NCBI GenBank assembly: GCA_020053375.1
Contig: JAGVNG010000026.1
Coordinates: 1 to 25,613, forward strand
Source of the DNA: Nanobdellota archaeon
GTDB lineage: Archaea > Nanobdellota > Nanobdellia > Pacearchaeales > GW2011-AR1
DNA length: 25,613 bases
Direction of reading: 5' to 3'
A program made the position numbers and the translations under genes. Within the stretch, counting starts at the first letter, position 1. Every line of letters starts with the position of its first letter. Below the pieces are notes generated by a model, which was not told the origin of the DNA, did no database searches, and saw only the letters and a program-made list of their open reading frames with translations. Shown here piece by piece: positions 8,523 through 25,041 of this stretch.

Positions 8523-10268
8523 CTATCTAAACCAAGCCAAAATTTTCTGTATAATATTTCCTTCTATGCATTGATTTGAGACGCATATATTAGTTCCACA
8601 CTCAAAGTTATTGTCACAGGCTTCTCCGCTTTCTAGTTGTGGACTCCAGGTTCCCCCAACAGCACAATAATTTTCTCCCTTCCTGTTATTGTATGGATAA
8701 CATTTCCCGTTGAGAGAGCAGCCGGAGTCACAGACTGGTGGAACTGCCGTTGTATATTTTTTTATGGTAACCCAGGCGCTTTCTCCAGTGCCCATAAATG
8801 TTATGATATATCTCTTACCATCAACATCTATTACACCGCTTCCTTCTGTGCTGAATGTTGTTTCATATATTTCGCCAGTCATGATATCTTTGAACTTTAC
8901 TCTATCGTTTGTTATAGCGCTTGTGCCAGTTGTCTGGTTGTAAACGTCATATAACATAAGGATACGATTGCCTAAAGTTATATTATCACCAACATTTAAA
9001 TCAAAACTAATCTTATTCCCTGTTTCTTTCACTGTTGCCAAACTTATCCTAAACACAACACTCAAATATCCATTATTTTCATCAGCTTCCTTAACATAAA
9101 CACTGAGTCCATTAACCTCTTTGGTTGCTCCCCCGTTAATTTCTTTTGTAACCCCCTGTCCGCCAGTCGTTGTTACTTCAATCGTTGCCGCAGTATCAGA
9201 CGCGGATAATAATTCTACTTCATAACTAAAATTGTTGAAAGTAACCATTGTTTTGGTATTGTTTGAATCAAGGCAGGTATAACCAGCTTCACATTCTACT
9301 GTCCCAGATATTCCAGATACAAAACTCAACCTTAAAGTAGCGCTCAAAAATAAGTTTGTTTCATCAGCACTTGTGACAGCCACATTTAATCCCTGAATTT
9401 CCTTAGTTTCTAATTCCCTAACTTCTTTTGTCTGGCTCGCTCCTCCATTTGTAACTTTAATTGTAGCAGAGGTATCAGAAGCTGAGATTAACTCAACCTG
9501 ATAAGTATAATTGTTGAAAACAACTGTTGTGATTTTATTGCTGGAATTAAGGCTGATATTTTTATATACTGTTTCTCTCACACAAGCCCCATCAAGACAG
9601 CCGTTGGGGCAATTATAATATTCAAATTGCGGACTATTATCTATCTCACAATATTGTTCTATCAATGTCGGGCCAGTTTCAGAGAGGCTAGAATTTAATG
9701 GATTAGTTCCATCCATACAAGAATCATCTCCTGTTGAATTTATACCACCAATACCCTTTGCAATTACAGTTCCTAATTTATAATAATTCTTTCCGCCATC
9801 ACTATCCGTGCAGGTTTGAACCGTTGTTTCCAAGCTTAACCCCAGCACAACCTTCAAAAATCCATTGTTTTCATCAGCACTTTTAACATAAACATTCAAC
9901 CCTCCGATTTTTTTGGTTGCTCCCTCATCGACTTCTTTTGTCTCGCTATTAACTTTTATAGTCGCTGTAGTATCAGAAGCGGAAATCAAACTCACAACAT
10001 AACTAGCACCATCAACAAACACTCTTTTGCCTAAATTATTTGAATCCAAACAAGTATATCCCTCTTCACATTGTGTTGTTCCATCCACAGGGTTGTTAGA
10101 ATCTTCAACAATCGCTACCTGACCGGTGATTTTATTCCAAAAATCATTAAACCATCCAGCAGAAACCAAGCTTAAAGATAATATTAAAATTATAGACACA
10201 GAAAACATAACCAACGACCTCTTTTCCATTCCTATGGAAAACGAGCGAACCCGTGAGCCTCTTTTCAT
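8523..10268 (-). CDS. secreted Cys-rich surface protein with three ~60-aa internal repeats
   Basis: N-terminal signal/anchor (an alternative start at M14 gives MEKRSLVMFSVSIILILSLSLVSAG). The repeat (Y)xVxL(I/L)SASDT(T/S/A)ATI(K/E)V...KE(V/I)...GL(N/S)V(Y/A)V(K/T)(S/E)ADE(N/T)N occurs three times. Cys-rich modules lie between the repeats and at the C-terminus. Confidence 0.85.
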   Translation of the reverse strand: MKRGSRVRSFSIGMEKRSLVMFSVSIILILSLSLVSAGWFNDFWNKITGQVAIVEDSNNPVDGTTQCEEGYTCLDSNNLGKRVFVDGASYVVSLISASDTTATIKVNSETKEVDEGATKKIGGLNVYVKSADENNGFLKVVLGLSLETTVQTCTDSDGGKNYYKLGTVIAKGIGGINSTGDDSCMDGTNPLNSSLSETGPTLIEQYCEIDNSPQFEYYNCPNGCLDGACVRETVYKNISLNSSNKITTVVFNNYTYQVELISASDTSATIKVTNGGASQTKEVRELETKEIQGLNVAVTSADETNLFLSATLRLSFVSGISGTVECEAGYTCLDSNNTKTMVTFNNFSYEVELLSASDTAATIEVTTTGGQGVTKEINGGATKEVNGLSVYVKEADENNGYLSVVFRISLATVKETGNKISFDLNVGDNITLGNRILMLYDVYNQTTGTSAITNDRVKFKDIMTGEIYETTFSTEGSGVIDVDGKRYIITFMGTGESAWVTIKKYTTAVPPVCDSGCSLNGKCYPYNNRKGENYCAVGGTWSPQLESGEACDNNFECGTNICVSNQCIEGNIIQKILAWFR

Positions 10269-13755: not shown

Positions 13756-13780
13756 CATTAATGAATACCTGCTTTTTGTT

Positions 13781-13795
13781 ACTATTATAAAATTA
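13781..13795 (+). promoter_or_regulatory. conserved upstream element ACTATTATAAAATTA (inside TTACTA-N9-TAGTAA inverted repeat), copy 1
   Basis: Exact 15-mer also at 5857-5871. A copy with one mismatch lies at 21125-21139. Each copy sits 13-14 nt from a TATA box. Confidence 0.5.
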
Positions 13796-13808
13796 GTAAT
13801 AAGAAAGA

Positions 13809-13816
13809 TTTATAAA
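13809..13816 (+). promoter_or_regulatory. TATA box (TTTATAAA) of DGR target gene 1
   Basis: Ends 21 nt upstream of the ATG at 13838. The context aagaaagatttataaat is duplicated upstream of target gene 2. Confidence 0.55.
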
Positions 13817-13837
13817 TACTACGTTCCCTGTAAAATA

Positions 13838-14506
13838 ATGGAAACAGCAACTAAAAAACAAGGAATTGTTTATACTCAACCAAGCGAAGGTTTTTGGGAT
13901 GTTCCCGGAGTTTTGTATAGAGGAAAAACAGGAACTTACAGGCTTTTTGAGCAAATGACTTCTGCTATGAATCAGGAACAGCTTGCTGAACTTTATGAAA
14001 CTGAAAAGCAAAAAGGAAACCCACATCCAACAGATGCGCCTTTAATCTTGGCAATTGCTTCCGTGGCGCATTCCTCAAGAGATGAAAATCCTCAAGACAC
14101 TGAAAGATTAAGACAGTTTCTTAGAACGAGCTTCAGAAAATATCCAAATACTTTAACAAGAATTGCTTATGAGCCTTCAGGAAAAGATAAAATTATTCAC
14201 AATTACAAAACTTCAGATGAATATTCAATTGAAGAAAGTGTTGTTGGTCCTGATGGTTTGATGAATGAAATTTCCAATAAAAAAGTATTAGAATCACTTC
14301 TCGGAACAAGTAATGTGACTCAAATTAATGCAGTATCTCAATGGATTAATGGAACCGATAGCTATATTTGGAGATTAAATTCAAAACCTTCAAAAAAAGA
14401 TGAAAGAGTTGCCAGGTTCGACGCCGCCGGCGGCAGGTTCGGCCTTTTCTGCCTCAGGTTTTCTCGTGATGGGTGTCCTGCTTTTCGGGTATTGAAGGTT
14501 GATTAG
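13838..14506 (+). CDS. DGR variable (target) protein, paralog 1; C-terminal variable region
   Basis: 222 aa, roughly 75% identical by eye to 21182..21862. The last ~28 codons align to the TR at 22230-22313 with adenine-specific mismatches. No signal peptide or TM helix is visible. Confidence 0.85.
   Translation: METATKKQGIVYTQPSEGFWDVPGVLYRGKTGTYRLFEQMTSAMNQEQLAELYETEKQKGNPHPTDAPLILAIASVAHSSRDENPQDTERLRQFLRTSFRKYPNTLTRIAYEPSGKDKIIHNYKTSDEYSIEESVVGPDGLMNEISNKKVLESLLGTSNVTQINAVSQWINGTDSYIWRLNSKPSKKDERVARFDAAGGRFGLFCLRFSRDGCPAFRVLKVD
14408..14491 (+). repeat. DGR variable repeat VR1
   Basis: Hand alignment to the TR shows differences at 19 of 25 TR adenines and at only 1 of 59 non-A positions (ctc->ctt). 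Confidence 0.85.
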
Positions 14507-14527
14507 GCGGTTTGTTTTGCTCGCCAG
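14477..14527 (+). repeat. 51-nt block identical behind both VRs (A-free TR-matching end, gene 3' end, GC hairpin ggcgg-N-ctcgcc); copy 1
   Basis: cctgcttttcgggtattgaaggttgattaggcggtttgttttgctcgccag is identical at 21833-21883, although the paralogs diverge elsewhere. Confidence 0.8.
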
Positions 14528-21086: not shown

Positions 21087-21124
21087 GAATAATTTGTTTA
21101 TATAATCTCTTTTAATAAATTGTT

Positions 21125-21139
21125 ACTATTATATAATTA
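21125..21139 (+). promoter_or_regulatory. conserved upstream element, copy 2 (ACTATTATATAATTA, 1 mismatch)
   Basis: Same position relative to the TATA box (13-nt gap) as copy 1. Confidence 0.45.
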
Positions 21140-21152
21140 ATAATAAGAAAGA

Positions 21153-21160
21153 TTTATAAA
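21153..21160 (+). promoter_or_regulatory. TATA box (TTTATAAA) of DGR target gene 2
   Basis: Ends 21 nt upstream of the ATG at 21182. It is part of the duplicated upstream region. Confidence 0.55.
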
Positions 21161-21181
21161 TCTCCTGTTTCTTGAAAAACC

Positions 21182-21862
21182 ATGGAAAACACAGCAAAAG
21201 AATCAGAAATTATTTATGAAAATCCTGTTATAACTTGGGAAAGTGAGAAACGTTTTCTGGTCTCTAATGTTGCTTACAAAGGACAAACAGGAACTTACAG
21301 ACTTTTTGAGCAAATGACTCCTGCAATGAACCAAGAACAGCTTACAAAACTTTATGAAACTGAAAAACAAAAAGGAAATCCTCATCCAACAGATGCTCCG
21401 CTGATTTGGGCTATTGCCACAAAAAGCCATGAACTTAGAAATCAAAATCCAGAAGTTTCTGAAAAATTAAGGCAATTTTTTAGGACTGGCTTCAGAAAAT
21501 ATCCAAATACCTTAACAAGAATTGCTTATGAGCCTTCAGGAAAAGATAAAATAATTCACAACTACAGGACTTCAGATGAATATTCAATAGATGCAGAAGT
21601 TGTTGGTTCAGAGGGTTTTGTTCAAGACATTCCTAACAAAAAAGTTTTGGAAGCACTTTTAGGAACACAAGATGTTTCCCAAATAAATGCAGTTTCACAA
21701 TGGATTAATGGAACAAATAGTTTTCTTTGGAGATTAAATTCAAAACCTTCAAAAAAAGATGAAAGAGTTGCCTGGTTCGTCGCCAACGACAACGTGTTCC
21801 TCCTCTGCCTCAGGGGTTCTCTTGATGGGTATCCTGCTTTTCGGGTATTGAAGGTTGATTAG
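21182..21862 (+). CDS. DGR variable (target) protein, paralog 2; C-terminal variable region
   Basis: 226 aa, paralog of 13838..14506. The C-terminal codons align to the TR with adenine-focused mismatches. No signal peptide or TM helix is visible. Confidence 0.85.
   Translation: MENTAKESEIIYENPVITWESEKRFLVSNVAYKGQTGTYRLFEQMTPAMNQEQLTKLYETEKQKGNPHPTDAPLIWAIATKSHELRNQNPEVSEKLRQFFRTGFRKYPNTLTRIAYEPSGKDKIIHNYRTSDEYSIDAEVVGSEGFVQDIPNKKVLEALLGTQDVSQINAVSQWINGTNSFLWRLNSKPSKKDERVAWFVANDNVFLLCLRGSLDGYPAFRVLKVD
21767..21847 (+). repeat. DGR variable repeat VR2
   Basis: Hand alignment to the TR shows 14 changed adenines, 1 non-A change (agg->gtg) and one AAC codon missing. aacgacaac is retained identical to the TR. 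Confidence 0.8.
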
Positions 21863-21883
21863 GCGGTTTGTTTTGCTCGCCAG
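21833..21883 (+). repeat. 51-nt post-VR conserved block with GC hairpin; copy 2
   Basis: Identical to 14477-14527. Confidence 0.8.
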
Positions 21884-22229
21884 TTTGGTTGAGCATGCCA
21901 ACAACAAAAAATTTAAACCAATCATTCTTTCATAAATAGCCCAAAAAGTTTTCTTCCTCAAACATTTTCAGTATGAGCAACTGGAAACGCAAGAAGAAAG
22001 CTGGATGGACTACACGCCGATTAACCAGCACATTATTCAAATTTATTTTAAGTCATAAAATTCAATCGCGACATCAAGTAAGGTTGATTTTATCCTACGG
22101 GAGAATTAACTGCAGGCAAGCAATTGTTTGCAATGAAAAATGAAGCGATGGTGCTTCCTTTATATTTTTGTCATGCAAGAATATATTGATGAGAAGGCTC
22201 TTTTTTAGAGAGGTTAATTGACTACATCA

Positions 22230-22313
22230 AGTTGCCAGGTTCAACGCCAACGACAACAGGTTCAACCTCAACTGCAACAGGAATTCTCATAATGGGTATC
22301 CTGCTTTTCGAAT
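22230..22313 (+). other. DGR template repeat (TR), non-coding
   Basis: gttgccaggttcAACgccAACgacAACaggttcAACctcAACtgcAACaggAATtctcatAATgggtatcctgcttttcgaata. An in-frame TGA sits at 22218-22220 just upstream. There is no homology to the target genes outside the VR. Every VR-variable position is an A in this copy. Confidence 0.85.
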
Positions 22314-22356
22314 AGTCTGTCCTTGGGCATTCTTGTTACTCATAGAATTATAAAAT

Positions 22357-23805
22357 TTACCTCTCAGGCTTCATGAATGGGAAAAGAATTATATCCCTTA
22401 TTGATTCCTGTCCTGTCAGCAGAATAAGCATTCTGTCAATTCCCAAGCCAACTCCTCCGGTTGGCGGAAGTCCGTATTCAAGTGAATTAACAAAGTCCTC
22501 ATCATATGGATGCGCCTCTTCATTTCCTCCAGAAAGTGATTTTTGCTGTTCTTTCAATAGAGTTTTTTGCTTTTCTGGATCATTTAATTCAGAATATGCA
22601 TTTCCCAGCTCTGTGCCAAGGCAAAATGGTTCAAATCTTTCAATAAGTCTGTCATCCCCTCTTTTAGCCTTGCATAAGGGAGTTGATTCATGAGGATGGT
22701 CAGTTATAAAAGTTGGTTGGATTATTTTCTTCTCGCAGTAGTGTTCAAATAATGCCATGACATAATAGCCCCAAGAATTTCCCTTTGTTTCTATCTTTTC
22801 CTTGTCGATTATTTTTTTCAGTTCGCTAGCGCTCATTTTTCCAGCATCAATTTTGGAATGCTGTTTTAGTGAATCAAGCATTGAAATTCTCTTCCATGGT
22901 TTTTTGAAATCAATAGTCTCTCCCTGAACCTTGATTTTTGTTGTTCCAAAGACTTTCTTGCATACATATTCATAGATTTCTTCGAAAAGGCTCATCATAT
23001 TATTATAGTCAGCATAAGCCTCATAAATTTCCATCATTGTAAATTCAGGATTGTGCCATTTGTCTATACCTTCATTTCTGAAGTTTCTGGCGATTGTGAA
23101 AACCTTATCAATTCCTCCGACAACAAGCCTTTTGAGATATAATTCAGGAGATATTGAAAGGAACAGGTCCATGTCAAGCGCATTCAGATGTGTTTTAAAT
23201 GGTCTGGCTTCAGCTCCTCCGTAAACAGACTGCAGGTAGGGCGTATCAACTTCCATAAATCCTTTTTTCTTTAGCAATTCTCTTATTGCATCAATTATTT
23301 TTTCCCTCTTCATGAAAACTTCCTTTACTTCTGGATTCATAATCAAATCCAAGTATCTTTTTCTGTATCTTTCCTCTTTGTCTTTTAATCCATGCCATTG
23401 TGAAGGAAGTGGTTTGATTGCTTTTGATAAGATTTCCAGTTTTTTTATTAGAATTGATATCTCTCCTGTCTTTGTCTTTATTATCTCTCCCTCAACACCA
23501 AGAAAATCTCCAGCGTCAGCATATTTCTTGAAAAACTCCATTTCTTTTTCAGGGGTTTTTTCACTCTGGACAACCAGCTGAATTTCTCCAGTCATGTCCC
23601 TAATTGTTCCAAAAGAAAGACTTCCAAATTCCTTCTTGTTCATCAATCTTCCAGCAGTCTTTACGCTTGCCTTTAATTTTGTTTTTCTGCATTCCAGAAT
23701 TGTCTGTTTTTTGTCAAAGCTGTAAGGATATGGATTAATGCCTTTTTTCCTCAATTCCTCTATTTTCTTCAGATGCTCTCTTACTATCTCCTCTTCTCGG
23801 CCCAT
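22357..23805 (-). CDS. lysS: lysyl-tRNA synthetase, class II
   Basis: 482 aa. Class II motif 2 (FRNEGID) and motif 3 (GGVGLGIDRMLILLTG), with an N-terminal OB-fold anticodon-binding region. Confidence 0.95.
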   Translation of the reverse strand: MGREEEIVREHLKKIEELRKKGINPYPYSFDKKQTILECRKTKLKASVKTAGRLMNKKEFGSLSFGTIRDMTGEIQLVVQSEKTPEKEMEFFKKYADAGDFLGVEGEIIKTKTGEISILIKKLEILSKAIKPLPSQWHGLKDKEERYRKRYLDLIMNPEVKEVFMKREKIIDAIRELLKKKGFMEVDTPYLQSVYGGAEARPFKTHLNALDMDLFLSISPELYLKRLVVGGIDKVFTIARNFRNEGIDKWHNPEFTMMEIYEAYADYNNMMSLFEEIYEYVCKKVFGTTKIKVQGETIDFKKPWKRISMLDSLKQHSKIDAGKMSASELKKIIDKEKIETKGNSWGYYVMALFEHYCEKKIIQPTFITDHPHESTPLCKAKRGDDRLIERFEPFCLGTELGNAYSELNDPEKQKTLLKEQQKSLSGGNEEAHPYDEDFVNSLEYGLPPTGGVGLGIDRMLILLTGQESIRDIILFPFMKPER

Positions 23806-24609: not shown

Positions 24610-25041
24610 TTACTCCTTGCCTTTGTAGTATTTCTTATATCCCTGTCTCTCAAATTCCTGGTTTAGAAGCTCATCTGCAAGAACCTGGAATTTGTCTTCC
24701 CTGCTTACATGTATATATTTTACTTTTTTGAATTTATCCTGCATTCTCTGGACAACAAGGAACAACTCAATCATTTTGGGATGAACCACTTTGTATTTTC
24801 CCATCAACTGCTTGTAAACCAGCTCTGAATCCATAACACAGGTGACTTCCTCTTTGGTGTATCTCTGTGCCAGCTCAAGGGCCTTTATCAGGGCATCATA
24901 TTCAGCAATATTGTTTGTAACTTGTTTTCCTATAAACTCGCTGTGCTTCGCAAGAATTTTGCCATCTTCCCGAACAATGACTCCTATTGCTCCTGGTCCC
25001 GGATTTCCCCTTGCTCCGCCGTCAGAATTGGTGAATATCAT
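24610..25041 (-). CDS. rnhA: ribonuclease HI (type 1 RNase H)
   Basis: 143 aa. SDGGARGNPGPGAIG (D), NNIAEYDALIKALE (E), DSELVYKQL (D) and ADELLN (D) form the DEDD catalytic pattern of stand-alone archaeal/bacterial RNase HI. Confidence 0.88.
   Translation of the reverse strand: MIFTNSDGGARGNPGPGAIGVIVREDGKILAKHSEFIGKQVTNNIAEYDALIKALELAQRYTKEEVTCVMDSELVYKQLMGKYKVVHPKMIELFLVVQRMQDKFKKVKYIHVSREDKFQVLADELLNQEFERQGYKKYYKGKE

What the first reader, a model, noticed from the sequence alone, without database searches (positions are those of the whole stretch)
21863..22356. TR sits in an RT-less intergenic island: orphan or trans-acting DGR template
Canonical DGR cassettes place the TR directly next to the reverse transcriptase, often with an Avd-type accessory gene. 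Here the TR is flanked upstream by target gene 2 plus ~370 nt without a convincing gene. Downstream lies the convergent lysS 3' end.

None of the ORF translations in the 25.6-kb window shows RT motifs. I saw no YxDD box and no [ILV]GxxxSQ.

The gap contains a TATA-like ctttatattttt at ~22156-22167, about 60 nt upstream of the TR. It also contains a 56-codon very basic ORF (21972-22142, MSNWKRKKKAGWTTRRL...) of unknown status.

There are three possibilities. The RT may act in trans from elsewhere in the genome, the cassette may be decaying, or the surrounding RNA may carry unusual priming or structural elements.
Basis: inference. Interest (0 to 1): 0.65.

Follow-up and report, generated by a model that had tools for sequence, protein, structure and literature searches.

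The report
RT-less archaeal DGR template RNA module
The "empty" gap is a known but functionally unassigned structured RNA (Rfam RT-16) fused to a mutagenesis template, forming a conserved module in tiny DPANN archaea that rewrites two protein genes and most likely borrows its reverse transcriptase from elsewhere.

Summary
Window 22230-22312 is a genuine DGR template repeat (TR) matching two variable regions. Mismatches fall on TR adenines in 19 of 21 and 14 of 16 cases. No reverse transcriptase (RT) is present in the 25.6-kb contig by Pfam or tblastn.

The roughly 370-nt "gene-less" gap is not empty. Positions 21955-22230 are Rfam RF03019, the RT-16 RNA (75 bits, gathering score 50), ending where the TR begins.

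In 30 related units from Pacearchaeota, Woesearchaeota and Nanoarchaeota, RT-16 always lies between a VR-bearing gene and a TR. About half have an RT gene 20-40 nt after the TR. The rest, including every locus of this window's target family, have none.

RT-less modules appear active. In the closest relative, 12 of 12 strain differences fall in the VR. The TR is 97.6% conserved where the gene is 79% conserved. One genome carries a canonical cassette and an RT-less module 4.4 kb apart.

Two covariation-supported helices flank the TR. Together they look like a circular permutation of the Bordetella phage primer/stop RNA core.

The 56-aa ORF and the 22158 TATA are not conserved. The RT serving this genome was not found.

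The parts
21906..21917 (+). Candidate archaeal promoter (A-rich BRE-like stretch plus invariant TTTAAA) for the DGR RNA
   Evidence: TTTAAA is invariant in 13 aligned family members. It lies about 22 nt upstream of the 5' strand of the outer closing helix. Promoter function is inferred and not tested.
21939..21944 (+). Y: 5' strand (GCCCAA) of the outer closing helix
   Evidence: Pairs with 22323-22328 in the unconstrained RNAfold MFE. The box covaries across units: GCCCAA, GCCCAGA, GTCCTGA, CCTAGCCATAT, TTCCTAACC, GTTCTGGC. Cognate 5'/3' flanks pair better than non-cognate ones, with 0 of 10,000 permutations reaching the observed value.
21955..22230 (+). RT-16 RNA (Rfam RF03019), the structured leader fused to the TR
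   Evidence: cmscan gives 75.4 bits against a gathering score of 50, E = 6e-12, covering the full model 1-158. It is the only copy in the window.
22003..22012 (+). X: GGATGGACTA, the 5' strand of the inner closing helix. Proposed primer-strand analogue, with A22012 as the proposed priming nucleotide.
   Evidence: Pairs with 22313-22322. Across 30 units anchored on invariant CUA/UAG, 93% of cells are paired against 33-45% in slid controls. There are 47 double-sided changes, and 0 of 500 shuffles reach the observed value. The priming role is inferred by analogy with BPP-1 Sp A56.
22016..22025 (+). P2 5' strand (GCCGATTAAC), 3 nt after X
   Evidence: Rfam consensus structure. Anchor-based covariation over 29 units gives 91% paired against 14-43% in slid controls.
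22213..22222 (+). P2 3' strand (GTTAATTGAC), ending about 6 nt before TR/VR homology starts. Proposed stop-duplex analogue.
   Evidence: The analogy to the BPP-1 avd:Sp 'cPRT Stop' duplex rests.
22230..22312 (+). Template repeat (TR)
   Evidence: A-specific mismatches to both VRs. It is 97.6% identical to the TR of L002, while the target gene is 79% identical and RT-16 is 77% identical.
22313..22328 (+). X' (TAGTCTGTCC) plus Y' (TTGGGC): the 3' strands of the closing helices, immediately after the last mutagenised adenines
   Evidence: TR/VR homology ends at this boundary.
21182..21862 (+). Target gene 2, with VR2 at 21766-21845
   Evidence: The family has 66 proteins and no Pfam domain. The AlphaFold model has pLDDT 90.8, with only weak C-type-lectin matches.
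13838..14506 (+). Target gene 1, a paralogue with VR1 at 14407-14489. It is a remote target of the same TR and has no RT-16 or TR of its own.
21973..22143 (+). 56-codon basic ORF, judged spurious; it lies inside RT-16
   Evidence: Not conserved. In 20 other units the longest ATG ORF in this region is 7-45 aa, with differing starts. The orthologous 4th codon is TGA in L004, L013, L021, L035, L038 and L042.
22357..23805 (-). Convergent lysS (class II lysyl-tRNA synthetase), a neighbour that is not part of the element
   Evidence: Pfam tRNA-synt_2, E = 2e-93.

Best explanation
The interval is an intact, self-contained DGR RNA gene without its enzyme. A conserved archaeal TATA-like promoter (about 21906-21917) is proposed to drive a roughly 390-nt non-coding RNA. 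This RNA comprises the RT-16 structured leader (21955-22230), the template repeat (22230-22312) and a 16-nt 3' tail (22313-22328).

The tail pairs back to two segments at the 5' end, X (22003-22012) and Y (21939-21944). Helix X:X' abuts the last template adenines. Three nucleotides after X, the RT-16 helix P2 begins, and its other strand ends about 6 nt before the TR. The TR is therefore looped out between two adjacent duplexes.

This is the same junction as the template:primer duplex plus 'cPRT Stop' duplex of the Bordetella phage BPP-1 DGR RNA, but circularly permuted. The primer/stop strand lies 5' of the template instead of 3'.

A DGR-clade reverse transcriptase encoded elsewhere is proposed to bind this RNA. 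That could be another contig of the same genome, or possibly a mobile element. The RT would self-prime from the adenosine of the invariant CUA (A22012) and copy the TR with adenine-specific errors. The cDNA would then replace VR2 (adjacent) and VR1 (7.4 kb away).

Shown here: TR/VR adenine-specific mutagenesis, RT-16 identity, both helices by covariation, absence of an RT, conservation and ongoing diversification of RT-less modules in relatives, and co-residence with an RT cassette in one genome.

Inferred: the promoter, the priming nucleotide, the stop function, and that an RT exists in this organism.
For: Sequence identity and absence of an RT:
- TR/VR adenine bias and AAY codons.
- RT-16 hit above the gathering score, ending at the TR start.
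- No RT by Pfam or tblastn in the window, or in any locus of this target family. This includes +-10 kb flanks in four assemblies.

Architecture across relatives:
- All 30 distinct RT-16 units retrieved have a VR-bearing gene upstream and a TR downstream, with A-biased mismatches.
- About 17 units have a Pfam-confirmed RVT_1 gene 20-40 nt after the TR. About 14 have unrelated genes instead.
- L036 (Pacearchaeota JAGVXI01) carries a canonical cassette and an RT-less module of this family 4.4 kb apart. They have different TRs and targets and only one RT.

Evidence of activity:
- L042 and L043-47 (74% identity to the window protein) differ at 12 of 1154 nt, all within the VR.
- Nine variants of the L002 orthologue differ almost only at residues 199-219.
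- TR is 97.6% conserved against 79% for the gene.

RNA structure:
- X:X' is 93% paired against 33-45% in slid controls.
- P2 is 91% paired against 14-43%.
- The unconstrained MFE of 21936-22345 recovers Y:Y' and X:X', with z = -3.3.
Against: - The RT that would serve this module was not found. The window is a whole contig, and the rest of the genome is not in the collections I could query.
- Co-residence of an RT cassette with an RT-less module was seen in only one genome. There the RT reading frame is interrupted at a G9 tract.
- Diversification was shown in relatives, not in this population.
- The window's RT-16 scores lower than most family members (75 against 68-106 bits), has two large loop insertions, and has only a 6-bp Y:Y' helix. 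Its post-helix T-run is degenerate (TTCTTGTT).
- VR2 carries a 3-nt deletion and each VR has 2 non-A mismatches. The last homing event is therefore not necessarily recent.
- The priming model rests on topology and covariation only.
Confidence: 0.72

Rival explanations
1. Fossil cassette. The RT that once followed the TR was deleted, and the RT-16/TR island is a decaying remnant that no longer diversifies anything.
For: In canonical relatives the RT starts 20-40 nt after the TR. In L036 a canonical cassette is convergent with lysS, exactly as this RT-less module is, so an RT deletion is a plausible origin. Decay does occur in the family. L001 lost RT-16 and the TR, and in L004 the TR slot is overwritten by a VR-like copy. 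The window's VRs carry 2 non-A mismatches each, and VR2 has a 3-nt deletion.
Against: RT-less modules of this target family recur in at least 8 different genomic contexts, across proteins down to about 50% identity. None has an adjacent RT. The TR is conserved far better than the coding sequence. Helices keep pairing through compensatory changes in RT-less units. VR-only differences separate otherwise identical strains. The window keeps all adenines, all helices and the promoter box.
Confidence: 0.14
2. The RT lies just beyond the contig end with its own copy of the TR, so this TR is a duplicated relic and the cassette is ordinary.
For: The contig ends 3.3 kb downstream of the TR. L036 shows an RT within 4.4 kb of a module of this family.
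Against: In L036 the RT-linked TR and its target differ from those of the RT-less module, so the RT-linked TR is not a duplicate. Syntenic relatives show no RT. L002 has 6.4 kb past lysS, and L048-51 have 10 kb on each side. There are 22 kb upstream without an RT. The window TR is the cognate of both VRs.
Confidence: 0.07
3. The 56-aa basic ORF encodes an Avd-like accessory protein, and the TR is transcribed from the TATA-like box at 22158-22169.
For: The ORF is very basic, like Avd. Paul et al. 2015 noted small basic ORFs between target and RT genes in nanoarchaeal DGRs. A TATA-like string sits 61 nt upstream of the TR.
Against: The ORF is absent or interrupted in 20 related units, with a TGA at codon 4 in six of them. 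Its basic residues come from the purine-rich arm of an RNA hairpin. The region is matched by a covariance model with conserved helices. The TATA string is in a non-conserved loop. A transcript starting there would lack X and the P2 5' strand.
Confidence: 0.03

Closest known systems
Rfam RF03019, RT-16 RNA motif (Weinberg et al. 2017, PMC5737381)
   Same: Window 21955-22230 matches the full model above the curated threshold. So do all 33 related copies scanned.
   Different: The motif was described only as 'found nearby to RT genes', with no assigned role. Only RT-10 was tied to a DGR. Here RT-16 is not near an RT. In every case it is fused 5' to a DGR template. The real RNA extends beyond the model, through the TR to a 3' strand that closes two long-range helices. 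The outer part of the Rfam P1 stem may be an alternative pairing to those helices.
Bordetella phage BPP-1 DGR RNA (avd 3' end, TR, spacer; Handa et al. 2018, PMC6182149; Handa et al. 2024, bioRxiv 10.1101/2023.10.23.563531)
   Same: The TR is looped out between a duplex abutting its 3' end and a duplex just upstream of its 5' end. The two non-template strands are contiguous, separated by 2 nt in BPP-1 and 3 nt here. The first base pair at the initiation site is A:U, as with Sp A56:TR U118. TR/VR homology begins a few nucleotides after the upstream duplex.
   Different: The primer/stop strand and the large structured domain lie 5' of the TR, not 3' (a circular permutation). No Avd gene is seen next to the canonical relatives sampled. 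An oligo-T run follows the RNA before the RT start codon. The RNA is frequently encoded far from any RT. Biochemistry is untested.
Nanoarchaeal and DPANN DGRs (Paul et al. 2015, PMC4372165; DPANN clade noted in PMC10907252)
   Same: The host group is the same. The targets are small orphan proteins with a C-terminal VR, and genomes carry several DGR loci. 'Partial DGRs' without an RT were noticed there and left open as fossils or remote targets.
   Different: [quoted passage not shown] Here the RT-less locus carries its own TR and full leader RNA. It is conserved as such and is shown to be diversifying in relatives. The small basic ORFs proposed there as Avd-like coincide in position with what is here a structured RNA.
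Trans-acting or incomplete DGR loci in Thiohalocapsa PB-PSB1 (Dore et al. 2024, PMC10907252) and non-adjacent targets (Wu et al. 2018, PMC5758913)
   Same: DGR components act on, or from, loci that lack some parts. TR and RT need not be co-transcribed.
   Different: Those cases are remote VRs matching a TR that sits beside an RT, or disrupted cassettes. Here a dedicated TR plus priming RNA is stably separated from the RT across a whole target family.
Retron msr-msd RNA
   Same: A closing helix brings a priming nucleotide on the 5' strand next to the 3' end of the template, which suits self-priming (established knowledge).
   Different: The associated RT clade is DGR-type. The product rewrites a gene with adenine-specific errors. 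There is no msDNA evidence.

Membership tests
Diversity-generating retroelement (DGR) | TR/VR repeat pair whose differences fall almost only on TR adenines | tested here: met
   19/21 (VR1) and 14/16 (VR2) mismatches fall at TR adenines; P = 1e-8 and 3e-6.
Diversity-generating retroelement (DGR) | VR at the 3' end of a protein-coding target, with AAY-rich TR codons | tested here: met
   VRs occupy the last roughly 30 codons of ORFs 13838-14506 and 21182-21862. The TR has 8 AAY codons in frame.
Diversity-generating retroelement (DGR) | DGR-clade reverse transcriptase encoded beside the TR | tested here: not met
   No RVT_1 hit in 27 ORFs and no tblastn HSP at E<=1 in the 25.6-kb contig. The feature is met in about 17 related RT-16 units.
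Diversity-generating retroelement (DGR) | Accessory gene (Avd or HRDC) | tested here: not met
   No Avd or HRDC Pfam hit in the window ORFs scanned. No conserved small ORF flanks the canonical relatives. The 56-aa ORF is not conserved. Some DGR architectures lack accessory genes (Wu 2018).
Diversity-generating retroelement (DGR) | Ongoing VR diversification in populations | tested here: inconclusive
   Met for the RT-less orthologous modules of relatives. Not testable for this contig without reads.
Rfam RF03019 RT-16 RNA | Covariance-model score at or above the curated gathering score over the full model | tested here: met
   75.4 bits against 50, model positions 1-158.
Rfam RF03019 RT-16 RNA | Location next to an RT gene (the basis of the motif's name) | tested here: not met
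   No RT in the window. Adjacent RTs are present in L020-23, L025-28, L030-37, L039, L041 and L053.
BPP-1-type cis-priming DGR RNA core | Duplex formed by the sequence abutting the TR 3' end (template:primer duplex) | tested here: met
   X:X' is 10 bp in the window. Across 30 units, 93% of cells are paired and 7 of 10 pairs show compensatory change.
BPP-1-type cis-priming DGR RNA core | Second duplex, contiguous with the primer strand, whose other strand lies just upstream of the TR (stop duplex) | tested here: met
   P2 starts 3 nt after X and ends 6 nt before the TR. 91% of cells are paired.
BPP-1-type cis-priming DGR RNA core | Primer/stop strand located in the spacer 3' of the TR | tested here: not met
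   Both strands lie about 200 nt 5' of the TR. The window has only 28 nt between the 3' closing strand and the lysS stop.
BPP-1-type cis-priming DGR RNA core | Priming from the 2'-OH of an internal adenosine, giving a branched RNA-cDNA molecule | not testable with these tools
   Requires biochemistry. A22012 is a prediction only.
Retron | Retron-clade RT with msr/msd RNA producing msDNA | tested here: not met
The adjacent repeat is a TR with adenine-specific VR partners.

The most novel reading that the evidence does not exclude
DPANN archaea run a 'one enzyme, many templates' diversification network. Autonomous RT-less modules (target gene, promoter, RT-16 leader, TR, closing strand) are stably inherited and spread to many loci. 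They are serviced in trans by the RT of an unrelated cassette, which may itself be switched on and off by slippage at poly-G or (GA)n tracts. The RT-16 leader would be a circularly permuted equivalent of the Bordetella phage priming and stop RNA, with the priming adenosine upstream of the template. This would show that the DGR ribonucleoprotein core is modular and portable.
Probability: 0.45. Interest if true: 0.8.

Novelty: new variant of a known kind. Interest (0 to 1): 0.66.

Why it matters
DGR surveys start from the RT gene and search nearby for repeats (method of Roux et al. 2021). Template modules that live apart from any RT are therefore systematically missed, and the number of diversified genes in DPANN archaea is probably underestimated.

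Assigning RT-16, an orphan Rfam motif, to the 5' side of DGR templates gives an RT-independent marker for finding such modules.

The two covarying helices give a concrete, testable model for priming and termination in an archaeal DGR. They suggest that the RNA core solved for the Bordetella phage can be rearranged. This matters for engineering compact, programmable DGR mutagenesis systems in which one RT serves several templates.

Tried and rejected
- Exact-sequence look-ups of the window's target protein and LysRS found nothing. The source genome could therefore not be extended.
- A profile search with the RT returned more than 7,555 hits with almost no genome labels. It could not show whether genomes with RT-less modules also hold an RT.
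- The RT-16 pattern gave no hit in viral contigs. A protein-based scan later found one IMG/VR contig with RT-16 plus an RT. The target family has no viral relatives.
- Fold searches of a confident target model gave only insignificant C-type-lectin hits.
- Generic duplex-energy scoring of 5' and 3' flanks was noisy because of A/U-rich spurious pairs. I replaced it with anchor-based gapless alignments.
- One script crashed partway through its listing, but its summary statistics were printed.
- I considered a group II intron, a retron and an Avd-coding leader, and rejected all three (see the membership tests and rivals).
- Paul et al. 2017 (PMC5436926) could not be read. Prior description of RT-less TR modules there cannot be excluded.

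Full report
**The observation**

The window is a complete 25,613-nt contig. It comes from a DPANN-type archaeon, carrying genes for a thermosome, PCNA, archaeal primase and class II LysRS. Relatives are annotated Pacearchaeota, Woesearchaeota or Nanoarchaeota.

Three copies of an 83-nt repeat exist:
- 14407-14489, at the 3' end of ORF 13838-14506.
- 21766-21845, at the 3' end of the paralogous ORF 21182-21862.
- 22230-22312, which is intergenic.

The intergenic copy is adenine-rich at exactly the positions where the other two differ. 19 of 21 and 14 of 16 mismatches fall on its adenines, although adenine is 30% of the repeat (P = 1e-8 and 3e-6). It reads as eight AAY codons in the VR frame. 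This is a DGR template repeat with two variable regions.

Pfam scans of 27 ORFs gave no reverse transcriptase. tblastn with two RTs of the associated clade gave no HSP at E<=1 in any frame.

**What fills the gap**

An Rfam scan places RF03019, the RT-16 RNA, at 21955-22230 on the + strand. The score is 75.4 bits against a gathering score of 50, E = 6e-12, over the full model. The match ends on the first base of the TR. It is the only copy in the window.

Weinberg et al. 2017 defined RT-1 to RT-19 only as motifs 'found nearby to reverse transcriptase genes'. They tied RT-10 to the Bordetella phage DGR spacer and speculated that other RT motifs act in other DGRs. I found no paper in the held library that assigns RT-16 a role.

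**Relatives**

The target protein has 66 homologues, none with a Pfam domain. Gene-context look-ups and two pattern scans anchored on the conserved RT-16 core returned 30 distinct RT-16 units. All score above the Rfam threshold.

In every unit with enough flank, a VR-bearing gene ends 100-250 nt upstream. A TR with adenine-biased mismatches follows directly. RT-16 is thus a constant 5' leader of the TR in this archaeal DGR clade.

Two architectures occur:
- **Canonical, about 17 units.** An RT gene starts 20-40 nt after the TR. These are L020-23, L025-28, L030-37, L039 and L041, with Pfam RVT_1 confirmed on examples.
- **RT-less, about 14 units.** The next gene is unrelated: lysS, NAC, SMC, a Y1 transposase, a radical-SAM enzyme, DsbB or a nucleotidyltransferase.

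Every locus of the window's own target family belongs to the RT-less class. None contains an RT-like HSP, including four assemblies with 10 kb on each side. L002 and L009 reproduce the window's arrangement with convergent lysS.

**Fossil or working part?**

Four results argue for function.
1. The TR is 97.6% identical between the window and L002. The non-VR part of the target gene is 79% identical, and RT-16 is 77% identical.
2. In the closest relative (74% protein identity), contig L042 differs from L043-47 at 12 of 1,154 aligned nucleotides, covering the gene, leader and TR. All 12 differences lie in the VR.
3. The 90% cluster of the L002 orthologue holds nine variants that differ almost only at residues 199-219, the adenine-templated codons. 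The L005 cluster behaves the same way.
4. One genome, Pacearchaeota JAGVXI01 (L036), carries two elements 4.4 kb apart: a canonical cassette (another target family, RT-16, TR, RT) and an RT-less module of the window's family. The module has a different TR and its own cognate VR, with 16 A and 0 non-A mismatches.

Real decay looks different. In L001 a deletion fuses the post-VR hairpin to the TR 3' flank. In L004 the TR slot holds a VR-like, adenine-poor copy that includes the VR-specific 3' flank, and the 3' closing strand is gone.

The window retains the promoter box, all helices and all template adenines, and its TR is the cognate of both VRs. I conclude that the module is a functional template served by an RT encoded elsewhere. 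That RT was not identified for this organism, so the step remains an inference.

**The RNA beyond the Rfam model**

The 10 nt that end in the invariant CUA just 5' of the RT-16 core (X, 22003-22012, GGAUGGACUA) are complementary to the 10 nt that start at the invariant UAG right after the last mutagenised adenines (X', 22313-22322, UAGUCUGUCC).

I extracted both strands by their invariant anchors, without reference to each other. Across 30 units, 93% of cells pair, against 33-45% when the partner is slid. Seven of ten pairs show compensatory changes, there are 47 double-sided changes, and 0 of 500 shuffles reach the observed values.

Contiguous with X' is Y' (22323-22328, UUGGGC). It pairs with Y (21939-21944, GCCCAA) at the predicted 5' end of the RNA. 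This box covaries between subfamilies: GCCCAA, GCCCAGA, GUCCUGA, CCUAGCCAUAU, UUCCUAACC, GUUCUGGC. Cognate flanks pair better than non-cognate flanks in 10,000 of 10,000 permutations.

RNAfold on 21936-22345 recovers Y:Y' and X:X' without constraints, with z = -3.3. In some canonical units the Y box can alternatively pair with X, which is the outer part of the Rfam P1 stem. A conformational switch is therefore possible but untested.

Three nucleotides after X (CAC) begins the 5' strand of RT-16 helix P2 (22016-22025). Its 3' strand (22213-22222) ends about 6 nt before TR/VR homology starts. P2 is 91% paired against 14-43% in slid controls.

**Proposed mechanism**

In the Bordetella phage BPP-1 RNP, the TR 3' end (TR 117-129) pairs with spacer nucleotides Sp 47-56. 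The 2'-OH of Sp A56, paired to TR U118, primes cDNA synthesis at TR G117. Two nucleotides further on, Sp 59-70 pairs with the avd segment just upstream of the TR and forms the 'cPRT Stop', and cDNA ends a few nucleotides before that duplex.

The archaeal RNA has the same two-duplex junction:
- One strand reads primer strand, then 3 nt, then stop strand.
- The other strand reads stop strand, then TR, then template strand.
- The innermost pair is an invariant A:U.
- TR/VR homology runs from about 6 nt after P2 to the base next to X'.

The difference is connectivity. The primer/stop strand and the large structured domain are 5' of the TR rather than 3'. This explains how the RT gene, or here lysS, can follow within a few tens of nucleotides.

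I therefore propose that RT-16 is a circularly permuted equivalent of the BPP-1 flanking RNA. On this model A22012 is the priming nucleotide and A22312 is the first templated base. The pairings are shown by covariation. The chemistry is inferred.

An invariant TTTAAA preceded by an A-run lies about 22 nt upstream of Y in 13 aligned family members, which fits an archaeal promoter. Most units have a T5-6 run right after Y', even where an RT gene follows. This hints that the RNA and the RT mRNA may be separate molecules even in canonical cassettes.

The 56-codon basic ORF (21973-22143) lies inside RT-16. In 20 other units the longest ATG ORF there is 7-45 codons with unrelated starts. The window's fourth codon, TGG, is TGA in six relatives, where ATGAGCAACTGAAAA forms a hairpin loop and arm. 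The ORF is an accident.

It occupies the same position as the small basic ORFs that Paul et al. 2015 flagged as Avd-like by pI and mass.

The TATA-like string at 22158-22169 sits in a non-conserved loop. A transcript started there would lack X and half of P2.

**The target and the RT**

The target protein models confidently (pLDDT 90.8). It has no significant structural neighbour, and the top weak hits are C-type lectins. This agrees with the 'orphan' nanoarchaeal targets of Paul et al. 2015.

The associated RT clade is very large, with more than 7,555 proteins at E<1e-60. It also occurs, together with RT-16, on one predicted viral contig. A mobile source of the enzyme therefore cannot be excluded.

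**Verdict**

It is not a new kind of system. DGRs in these archaea, the RT-16 motif, remote targets and incomplete loci are all on record.

To my knowledge from the held literature, three things are new:
- The assignment of RT-16 as the TR leader.
- The extended, permuted priming/stop architecture.
- The existence of a conserved, actively diversifying module class that carries its own template and priming RNA but no RT.

Paul et al. 2017 could not be read, so part of this may already have been noted there.

Noticed in passing
L023, L025, L026, L034, L036 (frameshifted RT genes); L027, L037 (in-frame tracts): Five of 13 RT genes are split by a frameshift between the ADIKHYF and GMPLGN motifs. 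All five carry a simple-sequence tract there: G6, G7, G9, G11 or (AG)7. Six tract-free RTs are all in frame. Two in-frame RTs carry (GA)10 or (GA)4. G-runs are odd in genomes of about 30% GC. This may be slipped-strand ON/OFF switching of the DGR RT, or homopolymer assembly errors.
   Followed up: partly
L042-L047 (closest relatives, Rifle and other groundwater): The VR next to the TR does not fit that TR (9-10 non-adenine mismatches). It fits the window/L002-type TR instead (1-3). Yet this VR is the only thing that varies between strains. Templates therefore seem to act across modules, not only on the adjacent gene.
   Followed up: partly
L004 10684-11300; L001 7919-7990: Two kinds of genuine decay are seen. 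In L004 the TR slot is replaced by a VR-like, adenine-poor copy that carries the VR-specific stop-codon flank, which suggests gene conversion from a VR. In L001, RT-16 and the TR are deleted, leaving only the TR 3' flank after the VR hairpin.
   Followed up: partly
window 13776-14527 versus 21120-21883: A segmental duplication of the target gene lies 7.36 kb away. It includes the upstream promoter-like region and about 20 nt past the stop, but not RT-16 or the TR. VR1 is therefore a remote target of the single TR.
   Followed up: yes
window 24610-25041 (-); L002 7712-8146 (-): An RNase HI gene (Pfam RVT_3/RNase_H) lies near lysS, close to the module, in both the window and L002. It is probably housekeeping, but RNase H could process RNA-cDNA intermediates.
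   Followed up: no
L053 5742-5869 and 6001-6960 (IMG/VR contig IMGVR_UViG_3300036859_000782): An RT-16 RNA sits directly upstream of an RT of this clade (48% identity) on a 33.7-kb predicted viral contig. The enzyme may also travel on mobile elements.
   Followed up: partly
All units, directly 3' of the closing helix (for example L036 copy A, L021, L005): A T5-6 run follows the 3' closing strand in most units, even where the RT start codon lies 10-20 nt further on. This suggests the DGR RNA terminates before the RT ORF. In the window the run is degenerate: TTCTTGTT at 22330-22337.
   Followed up: no
L005 11130-11454 (-), 13839-18436 (-): An archaeal RNase P RNA lies immediately downstream of the TR on the opposite strand, followed by an rRNA operon. 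L028 also has RNase P RNA beside its cassette.
   Followed up: no
window 8523-10268 (-) and 2283-4061 (-): Two large ORFs have internal repeats with a period of about 280-290 nt. The first (581 aa) has no Pfam match. The second has weak bacterial Ig-like domain hits. They are probably surface proteins.
   Followed up: no
L042 10139-12517: The eRF1 gene is interrupted by an intein with a LAGLIDADG endonuclease domain in the closest relative.
   Followed up: no
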